Assembly (NCBI GenBank): GCA_033875325.1
Contig: JANRKA010000071.1
Location: forward strand, 8,980-72,979
Reading direction: 5' to 3'
Length of the DNA: 64,000 nt
Source of the DNA: Elusimicrobiota bacterium
GTDB taxonomy: Bacteria; Elusimicrobiota; Elusimicrobia; UBA1565; UBA9628
Of the stretch, positions 27,703 to 64,000 are shown in pieces. Made by a program: the position numbers and the translations under genes. Within the stretch, counting starts at the first letter, position 1. Each line of letters starts with the position of its first letter. The notes under the pieces were generated by a model that saw only the letters and a list, made by a program, of their open reading frames with translations, made no database searches and was not told the origin of the DNA.

Positions 27703-28021
27703 TGGTGGCGAGGGCCAGGATTGAACTGGCGACACCCGGTTTTTCAGCGTTTTGTTACCGCTCCACGCGGAGCAGGGCCGACCTTCCGACCTCTTCACGT
27801 TACCGTGAAGACCAGACTATATCTTCCGCTTCGAGAGCGGTTAGGCGTGTAGTCGTTACGGGTTCCCCGAGGTTTACGCTCCTCGAGGCCTTCCCTCGGT
27901 ATTGTCCTCCCAGCTCTCGCCGGGGTGGGAGTTCCACCGATATAGCCTAATGCAATTCCCGCCGTCGCCGGCGGGAGGGGCCGATTTGTTGACCGGTGCT
28001 CTACCACTGAGCTACCTCGCC
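27703..28021 (-). tRNA. tRNA-Phe(GAA) interrupted by a group I intron (5' exon 27992-28021, 3' exon 27703-27747)
   Basis: Joining the exons gives GGCGAGGTAGCTCAGTGGTAGAGCACCGGT|CTGAAAAACCGGGTGTCGCCAGTTCAATCCTGGCCCTCGCCACCA. This is a canonical cloverleaf. The anticodon loop CUGAAAA gives anticodon GAA. The variable loop GUGUC and the overall layout match E. coli tRNA-Phe. Confidence 0.8.
27748..27991 (-). ncRNA. group I intron (IC3-like) inserted between tRNA positions 31 and 32
   Basis: The 244-nt insert carries the conserved catalytic core 'GACUACACG' (R/P7 5') and 'AAGAUAUAGUC' (S/P7 3'). The 5' exon ends in U and the intron ends in G (omega-G). A candidate IGS GCCGG can pair with exon CCGGU to form a U•G wobble. 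Confidence 0.7.
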
Positions 28022-28103
28022 ACGGACTTACTTGGTAGAACAACGAGATTATGCCACATTCCCGGCTAGGTGGCAATGTAGACGAGATTCTGCGGGCGCG
28101 AGC

Positions 28104-29210
28104 TTAGGCGGCTAACACGCGAAGGAGGCTGCCGTCCTCGGCGACATGCAGCAGCTTGTTCGGTTGGGCGTGGGCCTTGAGCGGGATATCGAGCAGCTTT
28201 TCGAACTCCCACTTGTTCAGCGCTTCCACGACCGCCGCGTCGAGCCCGAACTCGAGACTGAGGGGGTGGTGGGGCTCCCATTCGGGCCGGCGCTCCGGCT
28301 TGCCAGGCGCCTCCAATCGGAGCGGGCCAATCTGTTTGATCAAGTCCGCCGTCTCGCCGTATTCGTCCCGCAGGAACGTCCTTCCTTCGTGCTGGATCTC
28401 GCCCTGAAACTTCGGCATCTTTTCCACGACAGGCCCCGGAATCCATTTCTTGGTTCGGACGATCTCGGAGCTTCTGCGCTCGATGGCGCTGGCGAGAGTC
28501 GCCATGCCCGCAAGGGCTGCCGCGCTTCGGTAATGCCGCGCGAGCTGTAGATAGCGTTCCTCAGTCGACGGCGGCTTCAGGTCCTCGTCCCCCGGGGGAT
28601 CGAAGATGAAGAGCTCGACCGGCGGCCCATCGTTCGGCAGAGAGGAAATCACGCCGTACTTGTAGTTGGCGACATGCGCGGCCTTCTTGGCAGCGAGGTC
28701 TTTGGAGGCGCCGCGCACCTGCGAGCGTCTGCTCCGTCCCCGCGCCTCATAGACGGCGGTGAAGCCTCGTGAAACCACGCGGAAGTCGCATCGCTTGCTC
28801 GTGGTGGTAATTCGGGTGATCTCCGCGAGCTTGACCGAGAGAGCCTTGCACATCGTCAAGGTCGCCAGCCCGACGCCGAGCACCTGGGAGACCGCCCCCG
28901 TCCACTCGTGATCGCCAGACGCTCTCAGATGCAGGGCCTCCGTGCCCGCGTCTCGATACATGGTTCCAGCGAGGTCATCGAAGGCCCGGACTATTCGCCG
29001 GGCGGGCCCGCAGTCGCGGATGAGATAATGAACGGAGGCGTAGTGGATCAGGGCGATGGGGCGAATCGTGATTCCGGTTCGCACAAGATTCCTGAGCACT
29101 CCACTGTGCGGGTAGCTGTTCGTGGCACAGGAGCCATCGCCGTCTCGCACGGGAATAGAACATTCCGCGAATAGGTCCCTGATGAAGCCGGGAATGCCTG
29201 AGTACAGCAT
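28104..29210 (-). CDS. hypothetical 368-aa protein (no recognisable domain), first gene of a 3-gene minus-strand cassette
   Basis: It is a long ORF with good codon usage and lies next to the tRNA. It contains an Rx4H stretch (RASGDH). Confidence 0.4.
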   Translation of the reverse strand: MLYSGIPGFIRDLFAECSIPVRDGDGSCATNSYPHSGVLRNLVRTGITIRPIALIHYASVHYLIRDCGPARRIVRAFDDLAGTMYRDAGTEALHLRASGDHEWTGAVSQVLGVGLATLTMCKALSVKLAEITRITTTSKRCDFRVVSRGFTAVYEARGRSRRSQVRGASKDLAAKKAAHVANYKYGVISSLPNDGPPVELFIFDPPGDEDLKPPSTEERYLQLARHYRSAAALAGMATLASAIERRSSEIVRTKKWIPGPVVEKMPKFQGEIQHEGRTFLRDEYGETADLIKQIGPLRLEAPGKPERRPEWEPHHPLSLEFGLDAAVVEALNKWEFEKLLDIPLKAHAQPNKLLHVAEDGSLLRVLAA

Positions 29211-29648
29211 CTACCGCGCTTCGAGCCGCCAACGTGCCTCGCGTTTGCCGAGGCTCCGCACCGCGATCAGCGCCGCGCGGTTCTTGTCGCGAGGCCTGGA
29301 GCGGCCGCCTTCCCAGGCCGAAACCGCTCCCGCGCTCGCTCCCACCAGCTTTCCAAAAGCCTCTCGTGAAAGACCCAGGCGGGCACGCTGCGAGCGGATC
29401 AAGTGAGGCCCGAGGTGCGCGTTCTTCACCTCTGCTCCCGAGGCGGTGGGGGGCGCAGTCATGCGCGCTCTATAGTCGGTCTGGAGCTTGGCGTTGTCTC
29501 GCCGCAGTTGGTCCGTGGTCCGGGACAGCTCCGCGACCTTGTGCTTGAGGGCGATGACATCCTTCCTGAGCTTGGCGTCTGCTTGGCGCGACACTCGGCG
29601 GGCCAATCGCTGGATTTCTTCTCTAAGAACCGCACCGATGTTGGGCAT
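29211..29648 (-). CDS. XRE-family helix-turn-helix protein with N-terminal coiled coil
   Basis: 'IRSQRARLGLSREAFGKLVGASAGAVSAWEGG' is an HTH_XRE. The N-terminal 60 aa show a heptad-like pattern. The stop abuts the start of the 368-aa gene. Confidence 0.55.
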   Translation of the reverse strand: MPNIGAVLREEIQRLARRVSRQADAKLRKDVIALKHKVAELSRTTDQLRRDNAKLQTDYRARMTAPPTASGAEVKNAHLGPHLIRSQRARLGLSREAFGKLVGASAGAVSAWEGGRSRPRDKNRAALIAVRSLGKREARWRLEAR

Positions 29649-29658
29649 GTCGTCCCTC

Positions 29659-30087
29659 CTAAAACTTCGTCGCGCAAACGAACGCGCCGATTCCGATGAA
29701 AAGAAGCACCGCCGCGCTGCATGCGTAATCCGCCGCGGTGTACCAGCACTCCGCCTTGCCCATTTCCGCGAATCGAGCGTCGAGCTCCTTCATCTGATCG
29801 TCGGCTGGGTCTTTACGCTCATGTTTGCCGAGCCATCGGCTCCAATGACGCAGGGATTTCGCTTGGTGCTGGCTTCCGAGATAATGCGCGAGCTGCTGGA
29901 CCAGGCAGGCACAGATAGGGACGAAGAACAGGCGCGCCATTCCTCGCAGCGAGGCTTCTTTCCCCAGCTCGTATAGCGCTCCGGTCGAAAGGCCGATGAC
30001 CGTTGTCATCAGCGCTAAGCCGACGCCGCGGTAGCGTTCGTGGGCCTGCTCGGCTTTCTCCGATTCGGCTTCGGTATCTAGTGCCAT
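29659..30087 (-). CDS. small membrane protein (2 predicted TM helices)
   Basis: It is 142 aa. Hydrophobic segments are 'GVGLALMTTVIGLSTGAL' and 'AAVLLFIGIGAFVCA'. Confidence 0.4.
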   Translation of the reverse strand: MALDTEAESEKAEQAHERYRGVGLALMTTVIGLSTGALYELGKEASLRGMARLFFVPICACLVQQLAHYLGSQHQAKSLRHWSRWLGKHERKDPADDQMKELDARFAEMGKAECWYTAADYACSAAVLLFIGIGAFVCATKF

Positions 30088-30091
30088 CGTT

Positions 30092-31627
30092 TCAAGGTTT
30101 CAGCTTCAGTCGTTTGATCCGCGGCACGAAGATCTCATGGAAGCGTTCGAGGGAATGGAGCATCCATTCGTACGCCTGGGGCCATGCCGCCCGGTCGAGG
30201 AGCTTGCCGTCGAAATGGGTCTGGATCTGGCTTTCCTTCTTCGTGGGGAGCGGCTCCCAGCGTAGAGGAGCGCCGAATTCCTTATCGATCGCCGCCTTCT
30301 CCGTCTTCAGCAGCTCGTAGTTCTTCTTGCGATCCGGACCCTTGATCGCGATGTAGACGGCGAGCCGGTTCTGGCTCGCGATGGCGACGTAAAGGAAACC
30401 CCCGGTGTTGATCGTCATCCAGCCCTTCGGGCGCGGGACTGGATAGCGTAGTTTGCTGCCGGCTTTCTCCGCGTAGTTGCGGAAGCCGCTCCAGAAGTCG
30501 AACTGCAGTTTCGTGACGCCGCCCGCCCCGTTGGTCGACGCGCGCCCCGGCAGCGCCTCGTCCAGGTAAGGCTTCAGGACCTCGATGAAGCGGTGGATGC
30601 GTCCGGCGATGAATTCCGGGTCATCGGGCACCGTCTCGTAGAGACAACTCGAAGGATGATCCTCCCAGGAAACTTTGTCGCCGAGGGCCTCCTCGATTTC
30701 GCGCCGGTGGGCGGTGAGCAGGGTCTTGAGCGCGCGGTTATGGCGAGGCTGGCAGTTGGTGTGTACCTGGAACGTGCGATCCGCGGGGTCGTAGTAGAGA
30801 GAGATACCCTCATAGATGGTCTTCCAGCGCGAGAAGACGCCTTGAACATACTGCTTGCTCCTGTGGAGCCTCCAGCCCTCGCCGGCGGGGCAGTCATCCT
30901 TTAACATTCCCTCCACGCCGTCGAGCAGCTTGGAAAAGCGTTCCTTCACGTCCGCAGGCACGTTTGCTGCTTCCCCATCCTCATTCTCGTCGTCTTCCTT
31001 TGCGGACTGTGCCGGCCGCGCGGAGTCGTGCAGGGGGTTTATCAGCAGGTATTCATCGTTCGTCGTCGTGACGAAATTTGAGAACTGCAGGACGCGGCAG
31101 TCGAATCGAAGGCCGCTGATCTGGGTGATGAAGTCGGAGTCGAAGTCTTCCGCCACTACGACGCCGACCTGTTCGTCGTTGAAGTCTGGTACGTGAGTGA
31201 CCTTGAAGTGCTCCTTGAAGCGTCGCACGAGGTTGTTGACTTCGCGGTCGAAGGGGATGAGGTTCGCCTTGCGCGCGAGCTCGCCGTCGGACCACCCGCT
31301 GATCGCGGTGAGGTAGTCGTTGAGCTGGGCGACGGTATCGCGGGGAGCCCTCCCGCGCTTCAATTCGATCACGACGACGCGGCCGTGCTGGTCGAGAGCG
31401 AGCAGATCGATGAACGCGCCGCGATCGGTCTTCACCTGCCGGCCGATGAGGAGGATGTCGTCGCCGAGCAGATGCGGATTGGCGCCGAGCCAGTCCTCGA
31501 GGTTCTTCTCCAGGCGCTCGAAGCCGAACTGCCTCTTCTGGATCGGCTGGAACACCCCGGCGTCCGACTTGAACAGCTTCATCGTCATGTTACAAGGATG
31601 ATACCAAGCACGGTCCAGCGAGTCCAC
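30092..31627 (-). CDS. NucS/DUF91-like PD-(D/E)xK nuclease fused to C-terminal DUF4268-like domain
   Basis: It has 'GAFIDLLALDQHGRVVVIELKRG', the D…ExK nuclease core. The C-terminal region is 'GWMTINTGGFLYVAIA…YIAIKGP'. An alternative start at Met14 (31588) overlaps, as ATGA, a small upstream ORF. Confidence 0.6.
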   Translation of the reverse strand: MDSLDRAWYHPCNMTMKLFKSDAGVFQPIQKRQFGFERLEKNLEDWLGANPHLLGDDILLIGRQVKTDRGAFIDLLALDQHGRVVVIELKRGRAPRDTVAQLNDYLTAISGWSDGELARKANLIPFDREVNNLVRRFKEHFKVTHVPDFNDEQVGVVVAEDFDSDFITQISGLRFDCRVLQFSNFVTTTNDEYLLINPLHDSARPAQSAKEDDENEDGEAANVPADVKERFSKLLDGVEGMLKDDCPAGEGWRLHRSKQYVQGVFSRWKTIYEGISLYYDPADRTFQVHTNCQPRHNRALKTLLTAHRREIEEALGDKVSWEDHPSSCLYETVPDDPEFIAGRIHRFIEVLKPYLDEALPGRASTNGAGGVTKLQFDFWSGFRNYAEKAGSKLRYPVPRPKGWMTINTGGFLYVAIASQNRLAVYIAIKGPDRKKNYELLKTEKAAIDKEFGAPLRWEPLPTKKESQIQTHFDGKLLDRAAWPQAYEWMLHSLERFHEIFVPRIKRLKLKP

Positions 31628-31712
31628 GGCGGGTCGGTCCGCGGGCGCTCCACCCCGTTGGGGTCCTGAACGAAGGAAGTGCTTTTCCCGGCTGCCGACA
31701 TAACGCAGGTCT

Positions 31713-31989
31713 TATTTTTCATAACCACCTCCCGCTCAGCCGGCCAGGAGTGAGCGGCGCCGCGCCTGCGGCATAAACGGTCACCCCCGCCGACGATCGG
31801 GAAATTCGGCCCAACCCCCGCCGTGCCCCAAATTGCCCGACAGCGCGCTCCGCGCGGCCGCCAGCTCGGCTGCGCCGGGGGCGGTCGCCAGGTGGGGACC
31901 CACCATTTATTCCTCATCGCGGCGCCGCTCCTCGGCCGCCTTCGACCCTTCGGGCGTTCGGAGGTGGTTATGAAAAATAAGACCTGCGT
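31713..31989. repeat. perfect 30-bp inverted repeat pair bracketing a 217-bp leader; the right copy contains the RBS+ATG+6 codons of the JAB gene
   Basis: 31713-31742 is ACGCAGGTCTTATTTTTCATAACCACCTCC. It is the exact reverse complement of 31960-31989, GGAGGTGGTTATGAAAAATAAGACCTGCGT. Confidence 0.7.
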
Positions 31990-32518
31990 GAAAGTCGTAA
32001 CGGACGGCAAGACGGACACGGCGCCGGTAGCTGGTGAGTCTCTGGCCACGGAAGCCATGAAGCGTTCGAGGGTGCCTCTCTACCGGGTGATGCTCGACCG
32101 GACGGGCTCTATCCTCAAGGAGGGGACGGCATTCGTCACGGAGCCGCGAGAGGCTGCGCGGTTGTTCCGTGAGTTCATCGGGGACGCACCGCAGGAGCAC
32201 TTCTGTCTGATGGTGCTCGACGCGAGAAAGCGGGTCATCGGAATCAACGAGGTCAGCGTAGGGACGCTCTCCGCGTCCTTGGTGCATCCGCGAGAGGTCT
32301 TCCGGGCGGCCATCCTGCTCAACGGCGCGGCCGTCGTGGTGGCGCACAACCACCCGAGCGGCGACCCGGCTCCTTCCCCGGAGGACCGCGAGGCGACCCG
32401 ACGGCTCCAACGCGCGGGAGAAATCCTCGGCATTCCCGTCGCGGACCACATCGTGCTGGGAGAGGGCGAAGGAGCCTCCCTACGCTTCTTCAGCTTCCGC
32501 GACGGCGGGTTGCTCTAG
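31970..32518 (+). CDS. RadC-like JAB/MPN domain protein (DUF2466)
   Basis: It has 'VVAHNHPSGDPAPSPEDREATRRL', the HNHPSG JAMM-like motif. Confidence 0.8.
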   Translation: MKNKTCVKVVTDGKTDTAPVAGESLATEAMKRSRVPLYRVMLDRTGSILKEGTAFVTEPREAARLFREFIGDAPQEHFCLMVLDARKRVIGINEVSVGTLSASLVHPREVFRAAILLNGAAVVVAHNHPSGDPAPSPEDREATRRLQRAGEILGIPVADHIVLGEGEGASLRFFSFRDGGLL

Positions 32519-32586
32519 GGCGTCCACGCCGCCGCCCTGGGGCGACCCGGGGCGGTCCGTGGGCGCCTTAGCCCAAGGAGAACACC

Positions 32587-33051
32587 ATGAACATGAATGA
32601 ATGCGTAAGCCGTGAGCGCGAGGCGTTGAAGGAGCGGCGGCGTCTGCTGGTCGAGAAGCTCAAGCCGTTCGGAGTCGTCAGGGTCGAGGTCGATTACGAC
32701 GGCTGCGGGGACTCGGGCGATATCCAGGAAGTCCGCGCCTTGAAGAAGGGCCCCCGCTCCGACAAGGAGCAGCCCGCGAACCTGGACGGGCAGAGCGTCA
32801 CAGTCGAGCGCTTCGAGAGCGTCTACAACACCGAGCGCAAGGACTGGGACCGCAAGCCCTACCAGGCCACGGTGACGCTCAAGGAGGCGTTGAGCGACTT
32901 CGCGCTGGACTTCCTCTCGTTCCTCGGCATCGACTGGTACAACAACGAGGGCGGCTACGGGACCATCGTCCTGGATGTGGCGGGGGACGAGGCCAAGGCC
33001 GAGCACAACTATCGCATCGAGTCCAGCGAGTATTCGGAGCACGCCCTGTGA
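32587..33051 (+). CDS. hypothetical protein (mobile-element-associated)
   Basis: It is 154 aa and acidic, with 'DYDGCGDSGDI'. It overlaps the next gene as ATGA. Confidence 0.4.
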   Translation: MNMNECVSREREALKERRRLLVEKLKPFGVVRVEVDYDGCGDSGDIQEVRALKKGPRSDKEQPANLDGQSVTVERFESVYNTERKDWDRKPYQATVTLKEALSDFALDFLSFLGIDWYNNEGGYGTIVLDVAGDEAKAEHNYRIESSEYSEHAL

Positions 33052-33422
33052 GCCATACCTACCACCATGCCGTGAGCTCGGCTCGACTGTTCGGCGGCAA
33101 GCCCGAGGACTACCAGGCCGTTCATGACTGGTTCGACGAGAGCAAGGCCCACTTGGCCGAAGCCAGGCACCGGGCCAAGCGCCACCACGCGGAAGGCATC
33201 TTCGAGGCCGAGCGCGTGTTCGGCAAGACCATCATCAACAGCAACGGGACGAAGGTGCCCGTGCGCTACATCGGCGAGCAGCACGTCAAGGAGGATTGCG
33301 GCGGCTTCATCCCGTCCGAGGCCGATTGGTGGCGCTGCATCGTGCGCCAGCCGTGGATGAACCGCGGCTACGAGAGCAAGGACGGCTCCAACGCGCGGGC
33401 GGTCCGCGCGTCGGAGCCGTAA
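33048..33422 (+). CDS. hypothetical protein
   Basis: It is 124 aa and translationally coupled to the upstream gene. A hairpin terminator follows it. Confidence 0.4.
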   Translation: MSHTYHHAVSSARLFGGKPEDYQAVHDWFDESKAHLAEARHRAKRHHAEGIFEAERVFGKTIINSNGTKVPVRYIGEQHVKEDCGGFIPSEADWWRCIVRQPWMNRGYESKDGSNARAVRASEP

Positions 33423-33436
33423 CGCAAAAGCGGTTC

Positions 33437-33465
33437 GGGGCCCGTCGGCGAAAACCGACGGGCCC
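33437..33465 (+). terminator. hairpin terminator GGGGCCCGTCGG-CGAAAA-CCGACGGGCCC
   Basis: It is a perfect 11-bp stem. The 3' U-tract is weak (TCTGCTTTG). Confidence 0.55.
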
Positions 33466-33469
33466 TCTG

Positions 33470-33650
33470 CTTTGCGGTGGATATTGCCGCGCCCGTGGAC
33501 GGCGTGGACGAGCAGGTCGCCCACCCCGCCCACCGCCGCTTGGATATCTCTGCCCTGCGGGGCGGATCGGTCCGCGACGCTCCACCCGCGCGAGAGGCCG
33601 CGGGGTCCCCGAGATCTCCACAATCTCCACCGCTCGGCGGCGGAGATTTT
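33470..33650 (+). repeat. partial copy (C) of island repeat family
   Basis: It shares 'GCGGTGGATA..CGTGGACGGCGTGGACGAGC.GGTCGCCCACCCCGCCCACCGCCGCTTGGAT', the palindrome GGCGGATCGGTCCGCG, and the tail 'CTCCACCGCTCGGCGGCGGAGATTT' with copies at 36961, 63775 and 35925. Confidence 0.6.
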
Positions 33651-33699
33651 TTCTTCTTCTCCTTCCACGGCACTTCCCGCTCCGCCGCCTCCCTTCTTC

Positions 33700-33923
33700 G
33701 GTCTGGTCCATTTCGCACCTTCTCTCGGGCCGCAGGAGTGAAGCCCGCCTGCGCTGCGGCATAAACGGTCACCCCTCTCGGCGACTCCCCGGCCGCTCCA
33801 GAGCCTTGCTCGTTCCGCTGGCCGGGTCCCTGCCGGGGGACCCACCATTTATTCCTCGCTTCGACGGACTTCCTCGCGACCCTCCACCCTCCGGGCGGGC
33901 GGAGGTGCGAAATGGCCCAGACC
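33700..33923. repeat. imperfect inverted repeat pair bracketing a 184-bp leader homologous to 31743-31959; right copy includes start codon of gene 33912
   Basis: 33700-33719 is GGTCTGGTCCATTTCGCACC. The reverse complement of 33904-33923 is GGTCTGGGCCATTTCGCACC. Similarity continues into the coding region: the left copy encodes MDQTEEGRRRSGK and the right gene begins MAQTYETRRRSGK. Confidence 0.6.
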
Positions 33924-34298
33924 TACGAGACTCGGCGGCGGAGCGGGAAGCACGAAGGCTCTGACGTGAAAGTCCAGGGACGGAGCCAAGCACCCCGGGA
34001 GAAGCACATGAAAACTGGAAAAGCGTTGGGCTTCAAGAAGGGGGACTTCGTCCACACGGGAGCGTTCCCCGGAATCATCATCAGCGACGTGCAGACGTTC
34101 GCGCCGTGTTGCGAGGTTTGGGGCTTCGAGCACGAGATGGGCTCGGCCTACGCCGAGGACATGACGCTTCTGACCTGGGAGAACTTCCAGGAACTCGCCA
34201 AGCGCTTCGGCTTCGACAGCACCGCCGACTCCAAGACGGCGCAGGAGGCCATCGCCAAGGCGAAGGCGGCGGCTTCGGGGGTTCCCGTAACTGCCTGA
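33912..34298 (+). CDS. hypothetical protein
   Basis: It is 128 aa with no recognised domain. It lies downstream of a conserved leader module. Confidence 0.4.
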   Translation: MAQTYETRRRSGKHEGSDVKVQGRSQAPREKHMKTGKALGFKKGDFVHTGAFPGIIISDVQTFAPCCEVWGFEHEMGSAYAEDMTLLTWENFQELAKRFGFDSTADSKTAQEAIAKAKAAASGVPVTA

Positions 34299-34364
34299 TT
34301 CGACCAGGGGTCCCGAGGGCGACCTCGGGGCCCCGAGCCGGGCCAGGCCCGGGAACTGAAACAC

Positions 34365-35894
34365 ATGGAGAAAACAATGAACGAGACGAAAGAGAAGGAA
34401 GCCATGAAGGTGCCGGAGCGCGCGCTGTTGAGCATCCCGCTCGACAAGGTCGAAATCGTGGAGAACGTCCGCAGGAACTTCGACGCGGCTGAAATGAAGG
34501 AACTCGCGGCGAACATTAAGAAGGTCGGCATCCTGCAGAACATCATCGTCATCCGCAACGGCAAGGGAGCCTACACGCTCTCGGCAGGCGAGCGCCGGGT
34601 GCGGGCCGCGCGGATGGCGGGGCTCGTCGAGATTCCCGCGTCCGTGTACGAGGAAGGCGTGGACCCGAAGATGCTCCAGGTGTTCGAGAACCTCCACCGC
34701 AAGGACGTGGGGCCCGTCGAGGAGGCGCGGGGCTTCAAGCACCTTCTCGACGAGGGCAAGCACACCATCGAGGGCCTGGCGCAGGCCGTGGACAAGTCGG
34801 TGAAGTACGTGACGCGCTCGATTCGGCTCCTCGAACTGCCGAAGGCGGCGGTCAAGGCCGTCGAGGCGGGAACGCTCTCGCCCGAGCACGGCCATCAAAT
34901 CCTCCGCGCCCCGGAGGACAAGCGCGAGACGTTCGTGACGTTCGCGCTGACGCCCAAGTGGGGCGGCGGGAGCGACGTGCTTCCCACCATCCACGACCTC
35001 AAGAACGAAATCGAGCGGCGTTTGGAGAAGGACCTCTCGAAGGCCTGCTTCCCGAAGGACAAGGAGTACGCGGGGGCCATGGCCTGCTCGCTCTGCCCGT
35101 TCAACACGGGCAACCAGGACGTGCTGTTCGAAGGGGCCAAGGACGGCAAGTGCACCGACGGCGGGTGCTTCGCCAAGAAAACGTCCACGTTCCTGCGGGA
35201 GTTCCGCGAGGATGCGGGCAAGAAGCTCGGCGGGGTCAAGTTCGCGGGCTACGCGGGCCAGGACCACGGCATGCCGCGCGAGGTCGGCGAGGGCGTCGTG
35301 CTGAGCGCCTCGGAGGCCAAGAGCGAGGCGGTCAAGGCGCTCCTCAAGAAGGACCCCAAGAAGTTCGGCTTCGCCGTGCTCAAGCCGTCGCGGTTCGGGA
35401 GCAAGTCGCCGAGCGCGGTCCTCGTCTGCAACGACAAGGACTTCGTGACGGCGAAGCTCCGCAAGTCCGAGGAGAAGGCCGAGCGCGGTATGAGCGAGGA
35501 GGAGCGGGCCAAGGCTCACTTCGTCGCGACTCATGAGAGCAAGGCGCTGTTCCTCGCGGCGGCGAAGTCGCTCAAGGCAGTCAAGAAGTCGCACTTGGTG
35601 GACGTGGTCATGGCCTTGAACGGCGAGGAGTTGGCGTTCGAGGCCATCGGCGTCGAGGCCGACGAGGACGCGGCGCGGGCGCTCAAGAAGTTGTCCGAGA
35701 AGGACCTCCTGCGCCTGGCGTGGCTGTGCACGGTCCAGCACTACGAGTTAGACGAGCGCCTCTCGGGCCTCATCGAGGTCAAGAAGGTCCGCAAGGAAGC
35801 GCGGACGTTCGCGCACTCTGAGTGGGAGCGCATCCAGAAGGAGGAGGCCGCGAAGGCCGAGGCTCCGAAGGAGGTTGAGCCCGCCGTGAAGTAG
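34365..35894 (+). CDS. ParB/Sulfiredoxin-like nuclease domain protein (plasmid/ICE type)
   Basis: The N-terminal 'ILQNIIVIRNGKGAYTLSAGERRVRAARMAGL' is the ParB GERR-like motif. The long K/E-rich C-terminus has a Cys cluster 'CSLCPFN…CTDGGC'. Confidence 0.7.
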   Translation: MEKTMNETKEKEAMKVPERALLSIPLDKVEIVENVRRNFDAAEMKELAANIKKVGILQNIIVIRNGKGAYTLSAGERRVRAARMAGLVEIPASVYEEGVDPKMLQVFENLHRKDVGPVEEARGFKHLLDEGKHTIEGLAQAVDKSVKYVTRSIRLLELPKAAVKAVEAGTLSPEHGHQILRAPEDKRETFVTFALTPKWGGGSDVLPTIHDLKNEIERRLEKDLSKACFPKDKEYAGAMACSLCPFNTGNQDVLFEGAKDGKCTDGGCFAKKTSTFLREFREDAGKKLGGVKFAGYAGQDHGMPREVGEGVVLSASEAKSEAVKALLKKDPKKFGFAVLKPSRFGSKSPSAVLVCNDKDFVTAKLRKSEEKAERGMSEEERAKAHFVATHESKALFLAAAKSLKAVKKSHLVDVVMALNGEELAFEAIGVEADEDAARALKKLSEKDLLRLAWLCTVQHYELDERLSGLIEVKKVRKEARTFAHSEWERIQKEEAAKAEAPKEVEPAVK

Positions 35895-35932: not shown

Positions 35933-36070
35933 TCTGTGAGCGGGTCGTGCCTGGATGAACGGGGAAAACTTCGATGGCCGGAGTTCGCCCCCTGGCGGGG
36001 CGCGGACCGGTCCGCGAGCGCTCCTCCCTGCCGGATCGGCCGCAGGGACCGCGAACTCCGGTGGAACTAA
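35925..36070 (+). repeat. diverged copy (D) of island repeat family
   Basis: It contains the perfect palindrome CGCGGACCGGTCCGCG at 36001-36016, followed by 'GCTCCTCCCTGCCGG…GGGACCGCGAACTCC'. This is similar to the tail of the copy at 63775. Confidence 0.5.
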
Positions 36071-36479
36071 ACGCGGGGGTCGTTCGTATAGCTTGTGTGG
36101 ATCAGGAGACCCCCGACGCATTCCGGTGGGAGGAATGGGACTGGCGGCCGCTGGCGCGCCTCATCGCCTGGGTCCTCCTCGCCGCCCTTTGGGCGCGCTC
36201 GCGAGACATCGTCTCGCTCGCGCTCATTCAGCGCGTTCTCCGCGAGCTCCTGCTCGGCTGGCTGCTCTCCTTCGGCCTGCTGACTTATGTCCAAGCGCTG
36301 ATCGCCACCGCGGCCTTCCGCCTCGCGCTCGCGCTCGACGACGCCGCTTACGGCCTGTCGGAACGCCTCGTGAGGCTCTTCATGCGCCGCGCGTCGTTCG
36401 CCGCGACTTTCGTCGCGGCGTTCGGCGTCGAGCTCACGTTCGTTCTCGGCGCGCTTTGTCTCGTCGTGGGGGCGCTGCG

Positions 36480-36960: not shown

Positions 36961-37270
36961 GAAAAGCTTCGCTCAAGGCGAGTATAGAGCGCGAAGCGTG
37001 GAGCGCGCAAGACCCAAAAAGATAACCCAGCCCCCCATCCGTAAGAGCCGGGTCATCGTCCTATCGAGGGTTGCCTTACGAGGGGCCCCCGACAGAACGG
37101 AGCATAATCCCGGCGCCCGGATATTTCAAGACCCAAAAGTCCCAGGGCTGCGGTGGATACCGCCGCGTCCGTGGACGGCGTGGACGAGCGGGTCGCCCAC
37201 CCCCGCCCACCGCCGCTTGGATTTCTCCGCGCCTGCGGCGCGCGCGGACCGGTCCGCGTGCGCTCCTCCC
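36961..37270 (+). repeat. full-length copy (A) of ~300-bp island repeat family with internal 110-bp insertion
   Basis: 'GAGTATAGAGCGCGAAGC…GCGGTGGATACCGCCGCGTCCGTGGACGGCGTGGACGAGCGGGTCGCCCACCCCCGCCCACCGCCGCTTGGATTTCTCCGCGCCTGCGGCGCGCGCGGACCGGTCCGCGTGCGCTCCTCCCCGCCG' is ~95% identical to 63775-63950. Confidence 0.75.
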
Positions 37271-37395
37271 CGCCGGCGATCCGAAAACCTGGCCCAACCC
37301 CAGCCTAGCCCTTAGTTTTCGAACGGCTAGCGTGCCGCGAGGCGGCCAGCCCGGCTGCACACTCGAACAAGACTAGTGTCGCTCGTCTCGCGAAT

Positions 37396-60332: not shown

Positions 60333-60974
60333 ATGTACAACGCGAACATGCCTGACAAATCAGAACTCCCTTCAACGGAGAAGCTCGTCAAGTCCACCAT
60401 CCTGGCCGCCGTTTCGGCCGGCGTTCTTTTGGTCACGGTCGTTATGCCGGCTGAATATGGCATCGACCCTACCGGCGTGGGCCGCATTCTAGGCTTGAAG
60501 AGAATGGGGGACATTAAAGTATCCCTGGCACGAGAAGCCGCTGCCCAGCAGACCGCGGACCCGGCCGCCGGCGACCAAACTGCGGCCCGGCCCATAGAGG
60601 CGGCAGTGCCTGCCGTCGCGCCGGAGACAAAGCCAGCCGCAGCCGCGGCGGGAAATCGCGCCGACGAAATGCAGGTAACCCTCGCCCCCAATGAAGGAAC
60701 CGAGATCAAGGTCGAACTGGCCAAAGGCAGGAAGGTTGATTACATCTGGGCGACCGACGGCGGCCCCGCCAACTTCGACCTTCACGGCGATTCCAAAAAG
60801 CTGAAAATCGATTATCACGGATACGGCAAGGGTTCGGAGCAGAAGAGCCAAGGCACTCTAATGGCCGCGTTCGACGGGAGCCACGGCTGGTTCTGGAGAA
60901 ACCGAACGCCCAATACGCTCACCGTGACTCTTAAGGTTCACGGCGAACACACCGGCATCAAGCACATGAAGTAA
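60333..60974 (+). CDS. membrane-anchored hypothetical protein
   Basis: It has an N-terminal TM segment, an Ala/Pro-rich linker and a beta-rich C-terminus 'DYIWATDGGPANFDLHGD'. Confidence 0.4.
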   Translation: MYNANMPDKSELPSTEKLVKSTILAAVSAGVLLVTVVMPAEYGIDPTGVGRILGLKRMGDIKVSLAREAAAQQTADPAAGDQTAARPIEAAVPAVAPETKPAAAAAGNRADEMQVTLAPNEGTEIKVELAKGRKVDYIWATDGGPANFDLHGDSKKLKIDYHGYGKGSEQKSQGTLMAAFDGSHGWFWRNRTPNTLTVTLKVHGEHTGIKHMK

Positions 60975-61089
60975 GGACCTTTTCAATGAAAAGCGCACAC
61001 GACCACGATCAGACGACGTCGCAGGGACACAAGCACGGCGATGCCGCGATCCACGTCGATCCGTCGGGGAGAGGAAGGGGACCTTCATC

Positions 61090-62322
61090 ATGACGCGCAC
61101 TGAAACCGAGATGAACCGCCGGTCCAGCCTCGACTCTCTTTTCCCGCTGAACTACGACCGCGGAATCTGGCTGCCGGCGGGTTTGGCCGTGGTAGGGTTC
61201 GCAGGATTGGAGATGGTCTTTCACCTCGGCGGCGCCGCAGCCCAGGCGGGGATGCCTGACTTCCTCACGGAGGTCCGGGAAAGGACAGGATTCCGATTCT
61301 GGGATTTTCTATACCGCATCGGCTACTCGCTCCTGGTAATCCCCTTCCTCCTGCCCGCCGCAAGGGCTATTCAGGGGGCCTTGCGGAGACTCCTCGTCGC
61401 CTATCTATTGGCCCTGGGCGCCGGGGGACTGCTGGCGATATCTCTTCGGCCGGGAACCCTTGAGGCCGTCCCTTGTCTGCTGATCGCGGGCTGCGCCATC
61501 GTCACGCTGTTCTTCGCCAGGAGCGGGTTCTTCGCGATGACGGCTTTGGCGGCCGGCGCGACCACGACCGCGGCGTTGGCAACGTTCATGATCGAGCTCC
61601 ATGGCCCCATCGACATCGTTTCCGGCCTCGCATTGGGAACAATCGCCTTCCATCTCGCCTTCTCGAAGCCTCTGTTCTTTCTCGATCGCCCCAGTCCCTG
61701 GACGGGGATCGAGCACGAACTGGACAACCTTTGGAATCTCTTCGTCTCCAATACCCGACAGAAGTGGGAGCGCAACTACGCCTCGGGCTCGTGGGATTTC
61801 CTGAATTCGCCGTCGCAGCGCGGGCGCCACTACGCGATCGCGGGAATCGTCGCCGATCGTCATCCGGACGGAGGAGCCCGGGTCCTCGACGTGGGCTGCG
61901 GGCTCGGCACGCTGTACCCGCTGCTGAAGGGGCGCGTCTGTTCGTACTCGGGCCTCGACCTTTCCGAGGAGGTGATCAAGCGCTGTCGTTCCGCCTTCGC
62001 GGACGATCCGAACTGCACTTTCGCCAGCGGAGCCTTCGAGGATTTTCCGGCGCAGGAGCCCTTCGACGTCGTCGTGCTCAACGAGGTCCTGTACTACTTT
62101 CCCGTCTCGCGAGCCGTCGAGGTCTTCCAGAAGGCGCTCTCGCACGCCGGAGACGATGGTTTCGTCGTCGTCTCCATGAACCGTTCATGGAAAGGGCGCC
62201 TGATCCGGGCGCGACTGAACGCGATCTCGCCTCCGGTTCAAAGCCTGAGGATCACCAATCTCCAGACGGGAAGCTACTGGACCGTCGAAGTCTACAGCCG
62301 TGCCAAAGGAGAACATGGATGA
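61090..62322 (+). CDS. membrane domain fused to class I SAM-dependent methyltransferase
   Basis: It has 5-6 N-terminal TM helices. The C-terminus has motif I 'RVLDVGCGLGTLY' and motif post-I 'YSGLDLSEEV'. Confidence 0.5.
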   Translation: MTRTETEMNRRSSLDSLFPLNYDRGIWLPAGLAVVGFAGLEMVFHLGGAAAQAGMPDFLTEVRERTGFRFWDFLYRIGYSLLVIPFLLPAARAIQGALRRLLVAYLLALGAGGLLAISLRPGTLEAVPCLLIAGCAIVTLFFARSGFFAMTALAAGATTTAALATFMIELHGPIDIVSGLALGTIAFHLAFSKPLFFLDRPSPWTGIEHELDNLWNLFVSNTRQKWERNYASGSWDFLNSPSQRGRHYAIAGIVADRHPDGGARVLDVGCGLGTLYPLLKGRVCSYSGLDLSEEVIKRCRSAFADDPNCTFASGAFEDFPAQEPFDVVVLNEVLYYFPVSRAVEVFQKALSHAGDDGFVVVSMNRSWKGRLIRARLNAISPPVQSLRITNLQTGSYWTVEVYSRAKGEHG

Positions 62323-62771
62323 TGACAAGACTAGCCGTGCTATTCGCCGCGCTTCTGGCCGCTTCGACCTCTCTCGCCCACGACGAAGGCCACGGTCCCA
62401 GGCTCATGGAGGAGCCTCCCAAGCAAGGCGGGCTCATCGCTTCGGTCGTAGACGCGAAGGACGCAAAACTCGGGCCGGAGGCTCCGCTCGTCTATAAAGC
62501 CGAGTTGATCCGCTCGGATGACGGGACGATGCGTCTTTTCCTTTATGACGCCAAGATGGCGCCGCTAGATGGGGCCGCCTTCGAGAAGAAGGCGAACGCG
62601 ATCATTCTATCAGGGAAAAAGAAGAACAAGAAGCGCAGCTTCTCGCTGAGCAGGGAAGGCGGCGTCTACTCCGGCGTTGCTCCCAAGGCCCCGAGCCGCC
62701 CCTTCAACCTCGAGGTCTCGCTCAAAGACGGTAAGCGGTCCTTGCTCGTGGCGTTTGAGAATCTAGACTGA
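62319..62771 (+). CDS. secreted hypothetical protein
   Basis: Signal peptide MMTRLAVLFAALLAASTSLA. It is followed by 'HDEGHG'. Confidence 0.35.
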   Translation: MMTRLAVLFAALLAASTSLAHDEGHGPRLMEEPPKQGGLIASVVDAKDAKLGPEAPLVYKAELIRSDDGTMRLFLYDAKMAPLDGAAFEKKANAIILSGKKKNKKRSFSLSREGGVYSGVAPKAPSRPFNLEVSLKDGKRSLLVAFENLD

Positions 62772-62877
62772 CGCCGCACATCTGGCCCTCGTGGCTCATT
62801 GGTGTTTGGGTCTCGTCTAGTCCTGCGAGTCGCACGCTGCCTTCCGCGCGACCTAGAAAAATTCTTTAATTGCAGAA

Positions 62878-62932
62878 TAGGCGATGGAGTTCGCCTGAAC
62901 CGCCTCCGCCCAGGAGGCTGATGACTCCTACC
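62878..62932 (+). ncRNA. fluoride riboswitch (crcB RNA motif)
   Basis: 'GGCGATGGAGTTCGCC…AACCGCC…CTGATGACTCCTAC' matches the aptamer consensus (P1 GGCGAUGG/GUUCGCC, pseudoknot ACCGCC, 3' CUGAUGAnUCCUAC). It lies directly upstream of crcB. Confidence 0.85.
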
Positions 62933-62966
62933 GGAAGACGTTCTGGTAGGAGTCATTTTCATTTTA
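62921..62966 (+). terminator. riboswitch expression-platform terminator (ATGACTCCTACC…GGTAGGAGTCAT + TTTCATTTT)
   Basis: The 5' arm of the hairpin is the 3' strand of the aptamer. This is a mutually exclusive fold, typical of transcriptional ON riboswitches. Confidence 0.65.
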
Positions 62967-62980
62967 GAGGAGTGAGCAAT

Positions 62981-63355
62981 ATGGATAAGTCAATACCGCT
63001 TGTTTTCGGCGCGATCTTGGGTGTATTCGCGCGTTATCTGGTCGCGACGAGGATCTACATGATGACTGGGACCGGCTTCCCGTTTGGAACCTTGGCCGTC
63101 AATATCTCCGGCTGCCTCCTAGTAGGAGTCTTTGACAGCTGGGCAGGGGACCGCGGACTGATCGGGCCGGCGGGGCGCCTATTTCTCATGACCGGGTTCT
63201 GCGCGACCTACACGACCTTCTCGACTCTCATCCTCGAGAGTGCGCACCTCATCAGCAACGGGCAGATCGCCCGCGCCCTGGCGTACTATCTCGGGAGTGG
63301 CGTCCTGGGATTCGTGAGCTTCCGTCTGGGCGCGTTCCTTGGGAGAATATTCTAG
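62981..63355 (+). CDS. crcB: fluoride ion channel CrcB/FluC
   Basis: It has 'IPLVFGAILGVFARYLV…GTLAVNISGCLLVG' and 4 TM helices. It is preceded by RBS GGAG. Confidence 0.85.
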   Translation: MDKSIPLVFGAILGVFARYLVATRIYMMTGTGFPFGTLAVNISGCLLVGVFDSWAGDRGLIGPAGRLFLMTGFCATYTTFSTLILESAHLISNGQIARALAYYLGSGVLGFVSFRLGAFLGRIF

Positions 63356-63774
63356 GAGGCGGCATGGAGAAGGAGGTGCGCTGGCTAGGAAGCCTCCATG
63401 GCGGGTTATTGTCCCCACGCAGCGCGCGTGGATGAAGCCACTAAAATTCGTATTTGACTCGGCCGCCTGATTCGGGGCGAGTCATCCACCGCGGGTCCTG
63501 GCCAGCGATAACTTGGAGAAGAAGGGGAAGGTCTTGATGACGCGAACCGAGGCCTCCGCAGCACTGGGTCGCAGCAGCATGGCCTGAAGCCAATGGCCGA
63601 TGCGTAGGCGCGCGGCGAATCGGCGTAACCGTTCAAGCTGCCGAGTGTCCGTTCGTCGTTGTAGTCCGTCCGTCAGGCTTCGATCACGCCTTTCGCCTCG
63701 ACAATCGTCACGAACCGATTGTCGTGAGGTATTCCTCGCGAAAACGTCTGTTTAGGGGAAAAGATTCGCTCGAG

Positions 63775-64000
63775 CCGAGTATAGAGCGCGAAGCAGTACC
63801 TGCGTAAGACCCAATGCTTGCGGTGGATACCGACGCGTCCGTGGACGGCGTGGACGAGCGGGTCGCCTACCCCGCCCACCGCCGCTTGGATTTCTCCGCG
63901 CCTGCGGCGCGCGCGGATCGGTCCGCGTGCGCTCCTCCCCGCCGTGCGGCCGGCGGGGACCGAGAACTCCACCGTCTCCACCGCTCGGCGGCGGAGATTT
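63775..64000 (+). repeat. copy (B) of ~300-bp island repeat family, running off window end
   Basis: It is near-identical to 36969-37270 minus the 110-bp insert. It continues into the 'CCACCGCTCGGCGGCGGAGATTT' tail shared with copy C (33630-33650). Confidence 0.75.

What the first reader, a model, noticed from the sequence alone, without database searches (positions are those of the whole stretch)
31588..33923. Two paralogous leader modules each bracketed by inverted repeats that contain the downstream gene's RBS and first codons
In module 1, 31713-31742 is the exact reverse complement of 31960-31989, which is the RBS + ATG + MKNKTCV of the JAB gene. They enclose a 217-bp leader. In module 2, 33700-33719 and onward mirrors 33904-33923 and the first ~13 codons of gene 33912. 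The left copy encodes MDQTEEGRRRSGK and the right encodes MAQTYETRRRSGK. These enclose a 184-bp leader homologous to module 1, with shared 'TGCGGCATAAACGGTCACCC' and 'GGACCCACCATTTATTCCTC'. In module 1 the left repeat also founds a minus-strand mini-ORF, MKNKTCVMSAAGK…, whose stop overlaps (ATGA) Met14 of the NucS-like nuclease. A perfect 30/30 identity suggests ongoing DNA inversion, a fim/inverton-like promoter switch choosing between divergent genes. The alternative is long-range RNA pairing that sequesters the translation initiation region.
Basis: seen in the sequence. Interest (0 to 1): 0.7.

Follow-up and report, generated by a model that had tools for sequence, protein, structure and literature searches.

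The report
Conserved gene-leader hairpin, not an inverton
The two inverted repeats are the feet of a roughly 330-base stem-loop cassette, conserved and co-varying in about 30 copies in related genomic islands, which carries the ribosome-binding site and first codons of the genes it precedes. It most likely acts as a folded single strand that gates those genes, not as a flip-flop DNA switch.

Summary
They are only the base of two ~330-nt imperfect hairpins.

The same cassette occurs in about 30 further copies in MAG and metagenome contigs. It always has the same orientation and always supplies SD, ATG and about 14 in-frame codons to RadC, ECF-sigma or ParB-operon genes. A third copy lies just past the window end.

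In a 108-pair structure, 51 pairs show compensatory changes (0/500 shuffles reach this).

An inverton is not supported:
- the interior is itself self-complementary;
- all copies have one orientation;
- no recombinase is encoded in the island.

Wobble statistics are strand-neutral (unlike typical RNAs), and the template strand folds slightly better. I therefore favour a DNA-level single-strand hairpin analogous to Frpo/ssi ssDNA promoters, which also locks the translation start in read-through RNA (confidence ~0.4). No canonical -35/-10 and no conjugation genes were found, so an mRNA-leader mechanism remains a strong rival.

There is no Rfam or plasmid match. I rate it a new variant of a known kind.

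The parts
31678..32013 (+). Module 1: complete ~335-nt hairpin cassette upstream of, and overlapping the start of, RadC gene 31970-32518
   Evidence: nhmmer E 4e-87. 97 of 106 consensus pairs form. DNA MFE -102.7 (+) / -111.5 (-) kcal/mol, z about -11.
31703..31732 (+). Module 1 left foot: perfect 30-nt complement of the translation initiation region
   Evidence: I2. Helices H2-H4.
31960..31989 (+). Module 1 right foot: SD GGAGGTG (31960-31966), ATG 31970 and codons 2-7
31767..31786 (+). Left invariant box TGCGGCATAAACGGTCACCC. It pairs with the right box, with conserved C.T and C.A mismatches.
   Evidence: helix 6 invariant in 15/15
31896..31915 (+). Right invariant box GGACCCACCATTTATTCCTC, 64-71 nt before the ATG in every copy
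31785..31897 (+). Apical branched domain (helices H7-H11) with conserved loop GGCCCAACCCCCGCCG. It is shortened or replaced in module-2-type copies.
   Evidence: (helix 8: 8 of 10 pairs with compensatory changes)
31946..31964 (+). Right-arm-only insert CCCTTCGGG...CGGAGG: a local anti-SD/SD mini-hairpin with no partner in the left arm
   Evidence: CCCTCCGGG is invariant or nearly so.
33672..33952 (+). Module 2: complete hairpin cassette with reduced apical domain, upstream of and overlapping the unknown 128-aa gene 33912-34298, followed by ParB-like gene 34365-35894
   Evidence: nhmmer E 6.5e-62. Arms 33673-33727 / 33896-33950 (I1). Folds.
33755..33774 (+). Module 2 left box
33838..33857 (+). 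Module 2 right box
33472..33649 (+). Conserved ~185-nt structured element directly upstream of module 2. It contains the palindrome GCGGATCGGTCCGCG (33562) and ends in a terminator-like hairpin plus T-run (33630-33655).
   Evidence: (40 pairs, 14 with compensatory changes)
31600..31668 (+). Partial copy of the upstream element (palindrome at 31629 plus a small hairpin) to the left of module 1
37137..37359 (+). Truncated third unit: an upstream-element copy (37137-37275) fused to a remnant of a module's apical domain (37268-37359), cut off by the metal-resistance cargo
   Evidence: (E 7.7e-11, model positions 127-216)
63806..64000 (+). Upstream element of module 3. The hairpin itself and the ECF sigma gene start at the window end, as seen in L041, which is 100% identical to 60858-64000.

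Best explanation
The inverted repeats are the basal helix of a portable ~330-nt stem-loop expression cassette. Three copies head the three core operons of this island: RadC-DUF6878-DUF6915, unknown-ParB-RadC, and ECF sigma.

Shown: the cassette is conserved, its roughly 108 base pairs co-vary, its orientation is fixed, and it donates SD, ATG and about 14 codons to whatever gene follows.

Inferred (probability about 0.4): the functional form is a hairpin in single-stranded DNA of the template (minus) strand. This is analogous to Frpo/ssi single-strand promoters of conjugative-plasmid leading regions. When the element is single-stranded, on entry or during rolling-circle-type replication, the stem recreates duplex DNA around the invariant, mismatch-containing AT-rich box (GGCATAAACGG / CCATTTATTCC). 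RNA polymerase initiates there, and the transcript lacks the left arm, so its ribosome site is free.

In the resident double-stranded state there is no such promoter. An upstream terminator-like hairpin blocks read-through. Any read-through RNA would contain both arms and fold back on its own ribosome-binding site. The cassette would then be an 'express only on arrival' switch, not a DNA-inversion switch.
For: Hairpin and covariation:
- The units are whole hairpins, not just terminal repeats.
- Across 15 copies, 86.9% of cells are paired. 51 of 108 pairs have changes on both sides. 0/500 shuffles reach any measure, and slid controls give 44-53%.

Fixed anatomy:
- About 34 copies all have the same orientation, with the ATG 64-71 nt after the right box and in frame in 15/15 and 19/19.
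- All copies within one island are co-oriented with their genes.

DNA rather than RNA:
- Wobble-type mismatches are strand-neutral: 45 G.T versus 53 A.C cells overall, and 17 versus 18 at pairs that alternate GC/AT. Functional RNAs are expected to favour G.U strongly (my knowledge, not tested here).
- 30-50 bp near-perfect stems would be RNase III substrates in RNA (my knowledge).
- The template strand folds better after composition control: z -6.9 versus -5.8, 23/30 copies, p = 2e-4.
- The invariant C.A mismatch in the box is a G.T on the template strand.

Promoter logic:
- No sigma-70-type promoter is predicted on the coding strand anywhere in 31400-34400.
- Most modules are directly preceded by a GC hairpin plus T-run.

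Analogy with known ssDNA promoters:
- The 300-nt fold energies of -81 to -111 kcal/mol exceed the -75 kcal/mol screen used to find validated ssDNA promoters (PMC12672017).
- F carries two 92%-identical Frpo copies 5 kb apart, each heading an operon (PMC9849209).
- DUF6878, DUF6915 and ParB_N genes lie co-oriented in a leading-region-like block next to the relaxase/T4CP genes of a conjugative Rhodobacterales plasmid. The DUF6915 gene matches 113 plasmids, 86 of them predicted conjugative.
Against: - No conserved -35/-10 pair was found on either strand or arm of 30 copies (threshold 8/12). Only a -10-like CATAAA is present. The host tRNA promoter does use TTGCCA-N17-CATAAT.
- No relaxase or T4SS lies within 10 kb in six genomic contexts. 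The island in the window (about 28-65 kb) has none, so a source of single-stranded DNA is not demonstrated.
- The stem covers exactly the ribosome footprint. This is the natural expectation for an RNA-level translational lock and only incidental for a DNA promoter.
- The upstream element has a riboswitch-like alternative pairing: a closing stem versus the terminator hairpin. That suggests regulated read-through into the hairpin.
- The strand preference is small, and the copies are not phylogenetically independent.
- There is no sequence similarity to Frpo/ssi or to any plasmid.
Confidence: 0.4

Rival explanations
1. mRNA leader. The whole unit, possibly together with the ~185-nt upstream element, is a long 5' UTR. 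The left arm is an antisense element that sequesters SD, ATG and the first codons, as in the rpoS leader or IS10/IS50 fold-back inhibition. Expression needs an opener such as an sRNA, a protein, RNase III processing or regulated antitermination, or else an internal promoter whose transcripts lack the left arm.
For: - The basal helix spans exactly SD to about codon 15.
- A conserved local anti-SD/SD hairpin offers an alternative partner.
- Terminator-like hairpin plus U-rich tails are predicted at the right box (31891-31904, 33824-33843) and before the left arm.
- The upstream element has mutually exclusive closing-stem and terminator pairings, with compensatory changes.
- Orientation is fixed and the ATG is in frame.
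- No conjugation genes are nearby.
Against: - G.U and A.C mismatches are equally frequent.
- The antisense strand folds better.
- No promoter was found upstream of the left arm, and a terminator-like hairpin sits immediately before it.
- 30-50 bp near-perfect dsRNA is atypical for cis-regulatory leaders.
- The stem is invariant, yet the apical 'sensor' domain can be deleted or replaced between module types.
- No opener was identified.
Confidence: 0.3
2. DNA hairpin or cruciform recognised by a protein for something other than transcription. Candidates are a single-strand initiation (priming) site, or a recombination or cassette-exchange site at which gene cassettes and cargo are swapped.
For: - The same cassette is fused to different genes, giving a shared N-terminal peptide.
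- Cargo is inserted inside module 3 and flanked by 94%-identical direct repeats.
- The foot sequence CCTTCCCGTC / GACGGGAAGG is conserved.
- Wobble statistics are strand-neutral.
Against: - The cassette is always placed exactly at a gene start with a functional SD-ATG in frame.
- No HUH, integron-type or other recombinase is consistently associated.
- The remnant junction looks like microhomology deletion rather than site-specific exchange.
Confidence: 0.12
3. MITE-like palindromic mobile element, comparable to Correia elements or Rickettsia palindromic elements. It would have inserted at gene starts and now supplies an RBS and N-terminal codons.
For: Size of about 330 nt, long terminal inverted repeats, multiple copies per island, and an in-frame contribution to proteins.
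Against: - All ~34 copies sit upstream of a handful of island gene families in one orientation. None lies in unrelated intergenic or genic contexts in 596 Gb of genomes or in the metagenome scan.
- Internal short-range stems co-vary, which transposase-end conservation would not produce.
- No transposase is associated.
Confidence: 0.05
4. Inverton: a site-specific recombinase inverts the segment between the 30-bp repeats and switches a promoter between RadC and the divergent NucS-like gene.
For: A perfect 30-bp inverted repeat 227 bp apart, with divergent genes at module 1.
Against: - The interior is itself a hairpin with co-varying local stems.
- There is one orientation in all copies.
- Arms are imperfect in most homologues.
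- There is no recombinase in the island.
- Modules 2 and 3 have no divergent gene.
- The NucS-like gene has its own predicted promoter outside the module, at 31598-31626 on the minus strand.
Confidence: 0.02

Closest known systems
Frpo / ssi single-stranded-DNA promoters of conjugative plasmid leading regions (F Frpo1/2, ColIb-P9 ssi1-3, pESBL classes 1-3)
   Same: A stem-loop of about 300 nt with very low folding energy sits immediately upstream of co-oriented operons of 'establishment' genes (ParB-like and anti-defence-type genes). Paralogous copies occur a few kb apart in one element. An AT-rich box with conserved mismatches sits inside a GC-rich stem.
   Different: There is no sequence homology and no canonical -35/-10 reconstituted in the stem. 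The stem extends over SD, ATG and about 14 codons. The hosts are uncultivated Elusimicrobiota/Armatimonadota-labelled MAGs. No oriT, relaxase or T4SS is nearby.
radC and STAXI motifs of Rfam: structured elements upstream of radC, ssb, antirestriction and integrase genes in mobile elements (my recollection of Weinberg et al. 2010)
   Same: A conserved structured non-coding element precedes radC-type and DNA-interacting genes of mobile DNA. Whether it acts as RNA or ssDNA is unresolved.
   Different: No Rfam family matches modules or upstream elements even at E up to 10. The element is much larger, and it embeds the translation start.
Fold-back inhibition in IS10/IS50 transposase mRNAs and the rpoS leader hairpin (my knowledge)
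   Same: A sequence upstream of the gene's own start is complementary to the translation initiation region. Transcripts that include it are therefore translationally silent.
   Different: Here the pairing is about 110 bp long with a branched apex, co-varies over its whole length and shows no G.U preference. No opener sRNA or internal promoter has been shown.
Invertible promoters (fimS, Bacteroides invertons)
   Same: Short inverted repeats flank a segment of a few hundred bp next to a gene start.
   Different: The interior is self-complementary, the orientation is fixed, and there is no invertase.
KorB/ParB-family global repression through palindromic operators in IncP plasmids (my knowledge)
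   Same: A 15-nt palindrome (GCGGAYCGGTCCGCG) sits once upstream of every island operon, and the island encodes a ParB_N + HTH protein.
   Different: Binding is untested. This concerns the upstream element, not the hairpin itself.

Membership tests
Inverton / invertible promoter | Inverted repeats flanking the segment | tested here: met
   30/30 and 44/55 arms
Inverton / invertible promoter | Both orientations exist in populations | tested here: not met
   About 34 copies in assemblies all have the same orientation. Raw reads were not available, so low-frequency flipping is not excluded.
Inverton / invertible promoter | Cognate serine or tyrosine recombinase encoded nearby | tested here: not met
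   No recombinase domain among island ORFs in the window or in L045, L047, L048. Integrases appear only sporadically (L046, L050, L016).
Frpo/ssi ssDNA promoter | Long stable stem-loop in the single strand that is the template of the downstream genes | tested here: met
   Minus-strand DNA MFE -111.5 and -93.4 kcal/mol, z -10.3 and -8.7. Seen in 30 copies. Co-varying pairs.
Frpo/ssi ssDNA promoter | Canonical -35 and -10 boxes reconstituted in the stem | tested here: not met
   No conserved site reaching 8/12 matches on either strand of 30 modules. Only CATAAA / AATAAA boxes are present.
Frpo/ssi ssDNA promoter | Location in the leading region next to oriT of a conjugative element, with genes co-oriented | tested here: inconclusive
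   Genes are co-oriented and belong to families found in a plasmid leading-region-like block. No relaxase or T4SS lies within 10 kb in six contexts.
Frpo/ssi ssDNA promoter | Sequence homology to known Frpo/ssi | tested here: not met
   No blastn match of module 1 in 72,556 plasmids at E up to 0.01
Frpo/ssi ssDNA promoter | Transcription initiates on ssDNA and is lost in dsDNA | not testable with these tools
   Needs in vitro transcription or conjugation RNA-seq
Rfam radC / STAXI or any curated RNA family | Covariance-model match | tested here: not met
   No relevant hit in 31400-34400 at E up to 10. No hit at gathering threshold in the window other than the fluoride riboswitch.
Fold-back translational inhibition (IS10/IS50, rpoS-type leader) | Upstream segment complementary to SD/ATG | tested here: met
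   (helices 1-4, 24 pairs with compensatory changes)
Fold-back translational inhibition (IS10/IS50, rpoS-type leader) | Both arms present in one transcript | not testable with these tools
   No transcript data. No upstream promoter predicted.
MITE / palindromic repeat element | Dispersed copies in unrelated contexts | tested here: not met
   True hits occur only upstream of RadC, sigma or ParB-operon genes. There were 0 hits in viral contigs.

The most novel reading that the evidence does not exclude
A previously undescribed class of portable 'arrival-only' expression cassette in uncultivated Elusimicrobiota-type bacteria. It would be a non-canonical single-stranded-DNA promoter whose hairpin also serves as a translational lock and donates the RBS and an N-terminal tag to any gene recombined behind it. 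It is paired with a second ~185-nt structured element and a palindromic operator. It operates in small islands that lack their own transfer genes, which would imply that mobilisable islands sense their own single-stranded entry.
Probability: 0.3. Interest if true: 0.8.

Novelty: new variant of a known kind. Interest (0 to 1): 0.55.

Why it matters
Single-strand promoters are known experimentally only from a few enterobacterial plasmids. If this cassette is one, it extends the principle to distant phyla and to islands without their own conjugation genes. It would also show a new design, in which promoter, translational lock and N-terminal codons sit in one movable hairpin.

If it is instead an RNA leader, it is a large, strongly co-varying, uncatalogued cis-regulatory structure controlling an element-encoded ECF sigma factor and RadC/ParB genes.

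In both cases it gives a defined, testable sequence family of about 30 copies with an explicit structure. It is also a caution that perfect inverted repeats next to gene starts are not necessarily invertons.

Tried and rejected
- Rfam at gathering and at E up to 10: nothing for the modules or upstream elements.
- blastn of module 1 against plasmids: no match.
- Viral contig scan: 0 hits.
- RNAalifold run directly on the MAFFT alignment missed the basal stem because of indels. I replaced it with a per-sequence fold vote and then counted pairs with the official tool.
- Sigma-70 promoter scans of the region and of 30 modules on both strands: nothing conserved.
- Reading ECF-type (GGAAC-N17-CGT), sigma-54 and Bacteroidetes-type motifs by eye in the conserved blocks gave no convincing conserved site. 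One ECF-like site at 36063-36090 lies outside the modules.
- Strand assignment from raw MFE favours the minus strand in 15/15 copies. I discounted this because the minus strand is G-rich. The shuffle-controlled z-scores keep only a modest effect, and wobble counts are neutral.
- Search for att-type repeats between the left island border and the sequence beyond the right end: only 13-nt chance matches.
- Looked for T4SS or relaxase around six homologous clusters: none found.
- The minus-strand mini-ORF as a functional, coupled leader peptide: rejected because it is not conserved.
- Cross-phylum spread of the island: not claimed. L041, from an assembly labelled Armatimonadota, is 100% identical to the window end. 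The identical ParB is labelled Elusimicrobiota. The flanking intron-containing tRNA region also aligns in L009, L020 and L028. MAG labels are therefore unreliable.

Full report
**Observation**

The window holds a perfect 30-nt inverted repeat at 31703-31732 / 31960-31989, 227 nt apart. It also holds a 55-nt, 80% repeat at 33673-33727 / 33896-33950, 168 nt apart. Everything else checks:
- The right arms contain GGAGGTG, the ATG and the first codons of the RadC-like gene (31970-32518) and of an unknown 128-aa gene (33912-34298).
- The minus-strand mini-ORF with its ATGA overlap exists.

A 30-nt perfect repeat is far beyond chance: shuffled windows reach only 12-16 nt.

**What the repeats are part of**

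Folding either strand of each unit shows that the arms are only the base of one long imperfect hairpin of about 300-335 nt. It has an AT-rich box pair in mid-stem and a branched apex. DNA MFE is -103/-112 kcal/mol for module 1 and -81/-93 for module 2, and no shuffle folds as well.

**Relatives**

I scanned one genome per species with the two box cores (GCATAAACGGT ... ACCATTTAT). This returned 39 stretches. Eleven are clearly homologous modules and the rest are chance hits. An nhmmer profile added two more full copies and a remnant in the window at 37268-37359. A metagenome scan gave 19 further true copies out of 20 matches. There were no hits in viral contigs, plasmids or Rfam.

L041 was fetched through the crcB gene and is 100% identical to window 60858-64000. 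It therefore shows what lies beyond the window end: a complete third module directly upstream of an ECF sigma factor gene.

**Anatomy that is constant in all copies**

- The left box precedes the right box relative to the gene, with no inverted copy.
- The ATG lies 64-71 nt after the right box.
- The ATG is in frame with the downstream ORF in 15/15 and 19/19 cases.
- The downstream genes differ: RadC, ECF sigma followed by DUF6573, the unknown 128-aa protein followed by ParB, and small proteins followed by RadC. They nevertheless share an N-terminal peptide of the type MKKTCK....DGKGNG, because those codons belong to the hairpin.
- Copies within one island are co-oriented.
- Except where a divergent gene abuts (module-1 type), each hairpin is preceded by a second conserved element of about 185 nt that ends in a GC hairpin plus T-run.

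**Structure and covariation**

I derived a 108-pair consensus by voting over per-sequence DNA folds and counted it on the 15-sequence alignment.
- 86.9% of cells are paired, against 78% in shuffles and 44-53% when partners are slid.
- 51 pairs have changes on both sides (140 cells).
- 0/500 shuffles reach any of the five measures.
- Compensation is found in the basal stem that pairs with the coding sequence (24 pairs in helices 1-4), in the middle stem, and in short-range apical helices (helix 8: 8 of 10 pairs).
- The box helix is invariant, including two mismatches that are never repaired.

Concerted evolution of two recombining repeats could mimic covariation of the feet. It cannot explain local apical stems.

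**Why not an inverton**

- The interior is self-complementary.
- The orientation is fixed in about 34 copies.
- The arms are imperfect in most homologues.
- Nothing with a recombinase domain is encoded in the island part of the window or beside most related clusters.
- Modules 2 and 3 have no divergent partner gene.
- The NucS-like gene has its own predicted promoter outside the module.

Raw reads could not be examined, so rare flipping is not formally excluded. I put it at about 2%.

**Which molecule folds**

This is the unresolved core.

Points favouring RNA:
- The basal helix covers just the ribosome footprint.
- A conserved local CCUCCG/CGGAGG hairpin offers an alternative SD partner.
- Terminator-like hairpins are predicted at the right box and before the left arm.
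- In the upstream element, the 3' strand of the closing stem (CCACCGC) can alternatively form the terminator hairpin.

Points favouring DNA:
- G.T-type and A.C-type mismatches are equally common: 45 versus 53 cells overall, and 17 versus 18 at pairs alternating between GC and AT. Functional RNAs are expected to tolerate G.U but not A.C.
- After dinucleotide-shuffle control the template (minus) strand folds better in 23/30 modules (mean z -6.9 versus -5.8, p = 2e-4) and in 12-13 of 13 upstream elements.
- The stems contain 30-50 bp of near-perfect duplex.
- No promoter is predicted upstream of the left arm, and a terminator-like hairpin sits there instead.
- The stem is invariant while the apical domain is dispensable between module types.

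**Context**

The island has 62-66% GC in a 72% GC genome. It begins next to an intron-containing tRNA at about 28 kb and runs past the window end. Its core is RadC-DUF6878-DUF6915 / unknown-ParB-membrane protein-RadC / ECF sigma, interrupted by 26 kb of metal-resistance cargo.

The same compact core recurs in other contigs with different neighbours: RND pumps, GTPase-type conflict systems and integrases. None of the six contexts has a relaxase or T4SS within 10 kb.

The DUF6915 gene matches 113 plasmids, 86 of them predicted conjugative. In one conjugative plasmid examined, DUF6878 and the DUF6915 homologue sit in a co-oriented block with ArdC-like, ParB_N and strawberry-notch genes. That block is about 12 kb from the relaxase and coupling-protein genes. 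This is the kind of region where ssDNA promoters are known (PMC11541004, PMC9849209, PMC12672017).

**Best explanation and its weakness**

Weighing these points, I favour a DNA-level hairpin on the template strand that works like Frpo/ssi. The stem provides the duplex for initiation when the element is single-stranded. The transcript then lacks the left arm and is translatable. In the double-stranded resident state the genes are silent, insulated by the upstream terminator-like hairpin and by fold-back of any read-through RNA. Confidence is about 0.4.

It fails two membership tests for Frpo proper. There is no canonical -35/-10 in the stem, although the host's own tRNA promoter is canonical. 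There is also no demonstrated conjugative context. I therefore claim analogy of mechanism, not membership.

The main rival is a purely RNA-level leader (about 0.3). Smaller rivals are a protein-recognised priming or recombination hairpin (about 0.12), a MITE-like element (about 0.05) and an inverton (about 0.02). The DNA and RNA roles are not mutually exclusive.

**Novelty**

The family has no match in Rfam 15 or in plasmid or phage collections. A full-text search for the associated DUF families found no papers. It is best described as a new variant of the known kind 'structured leader hairpins of mobile-element establishment genes'. Its unusual feature is that the hairpin embeds the translation start and N-terminal codons and travels with them between genes.

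Noticed in passing
window 27705-28052, minus strand: A tRNA gene is interrupted by a group I intron of about 250 nt. Rfam Intron_gpI scores 47.4 bits (E 6e-11), just under the gathering score of 50. ARAGORN calls no tRNA. The gene marks the left border of the lower-GC island and has a canonical TTGCCA-N17-CATAAT promoter at about 28030-28075.
   Followed up: partly
window 33472-33649, 37137-37275, 63806-64000; partial copies at 35990-36060 and 31600-31668: A second conserved structured element of about 185 nt lies directly upstream of the hairpin modules. RNAalifold gives 40 pairs, 14 with compensatory changes. Its closing stem (GCGGTGG/CCACCGC) competes with a terminator-like hairpin plus T-run. 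It has no Rfam match and folds better on the minus strand in 13/13 copies with RNA parameters (12/13 with DNA parameters).
   Followed up: partly
window 31629, 33562, 36001, 37243, 63912: The 15-nt palindrome GCGGAYCGGTCCGCG occurs once upstream of every island operon and nowhere in the host part (8 strand-matches against 2 expected). It is a candidate operator or parS for the ParB-like or HTH protein.
   Followed up: partly
window 37268-37359 and 37360-63805: The 26-kb metal-resistance cargo includes CsoR-type repressor, CDF, MFS, IucA/IucC, RND, P-type ATPase, HupE and crcB genes. It sits inside what was module 3. It is flanked by 94%-identical direct repeats (37137-37275 / 63806-63944) and leaves a remnant of the module's apical domain.
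   Followed up: partly
window 62871-62937: A fluoride riboswitch (62.4 bits) lies upstream of crcB (62981-63355).
   Followed up: no
window 36063-36090: An ECF-type promoter-like sequence, GGAAC-N17-CGTA, lies upstream of the WDWRP membrane protein and second RadC genes. It is a possible target of the island's ECF sigma.
   Followed up: no
L041 4095-4140 (about 950-1000 nt beyond the window end) and window 31626-31668: The motif GGCGGGTCGGTCCGCGGGCGCTCCACCCC-NNN-GGGGTCC occurs in direct orientation just left of module 1 and just after the sigma gene. It may delimit the island core.
   Followed up: no
window 28104-31627, minus strand: The left arm of the island carries an unknown 368-aa protein, an HTH protein, an unknown 142-aa protein and a NucS_C + DUF4268 protein. 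The HTH and NucS-like genes are syntenic in L009, and the NucS-like gene also in L028. Their function and link to the cassettes are unknown.
   Followed up: no
L009, L041 versus P0001: Taxon labels conflict. Contigs of an assembly labelled Armatimonadota are 100% identical to the window end, while the identical ParB protein is labelled Elusimicrobiota. Apparent cross-phylum spread of the island may be a binning artefact.
   Followed up: partly
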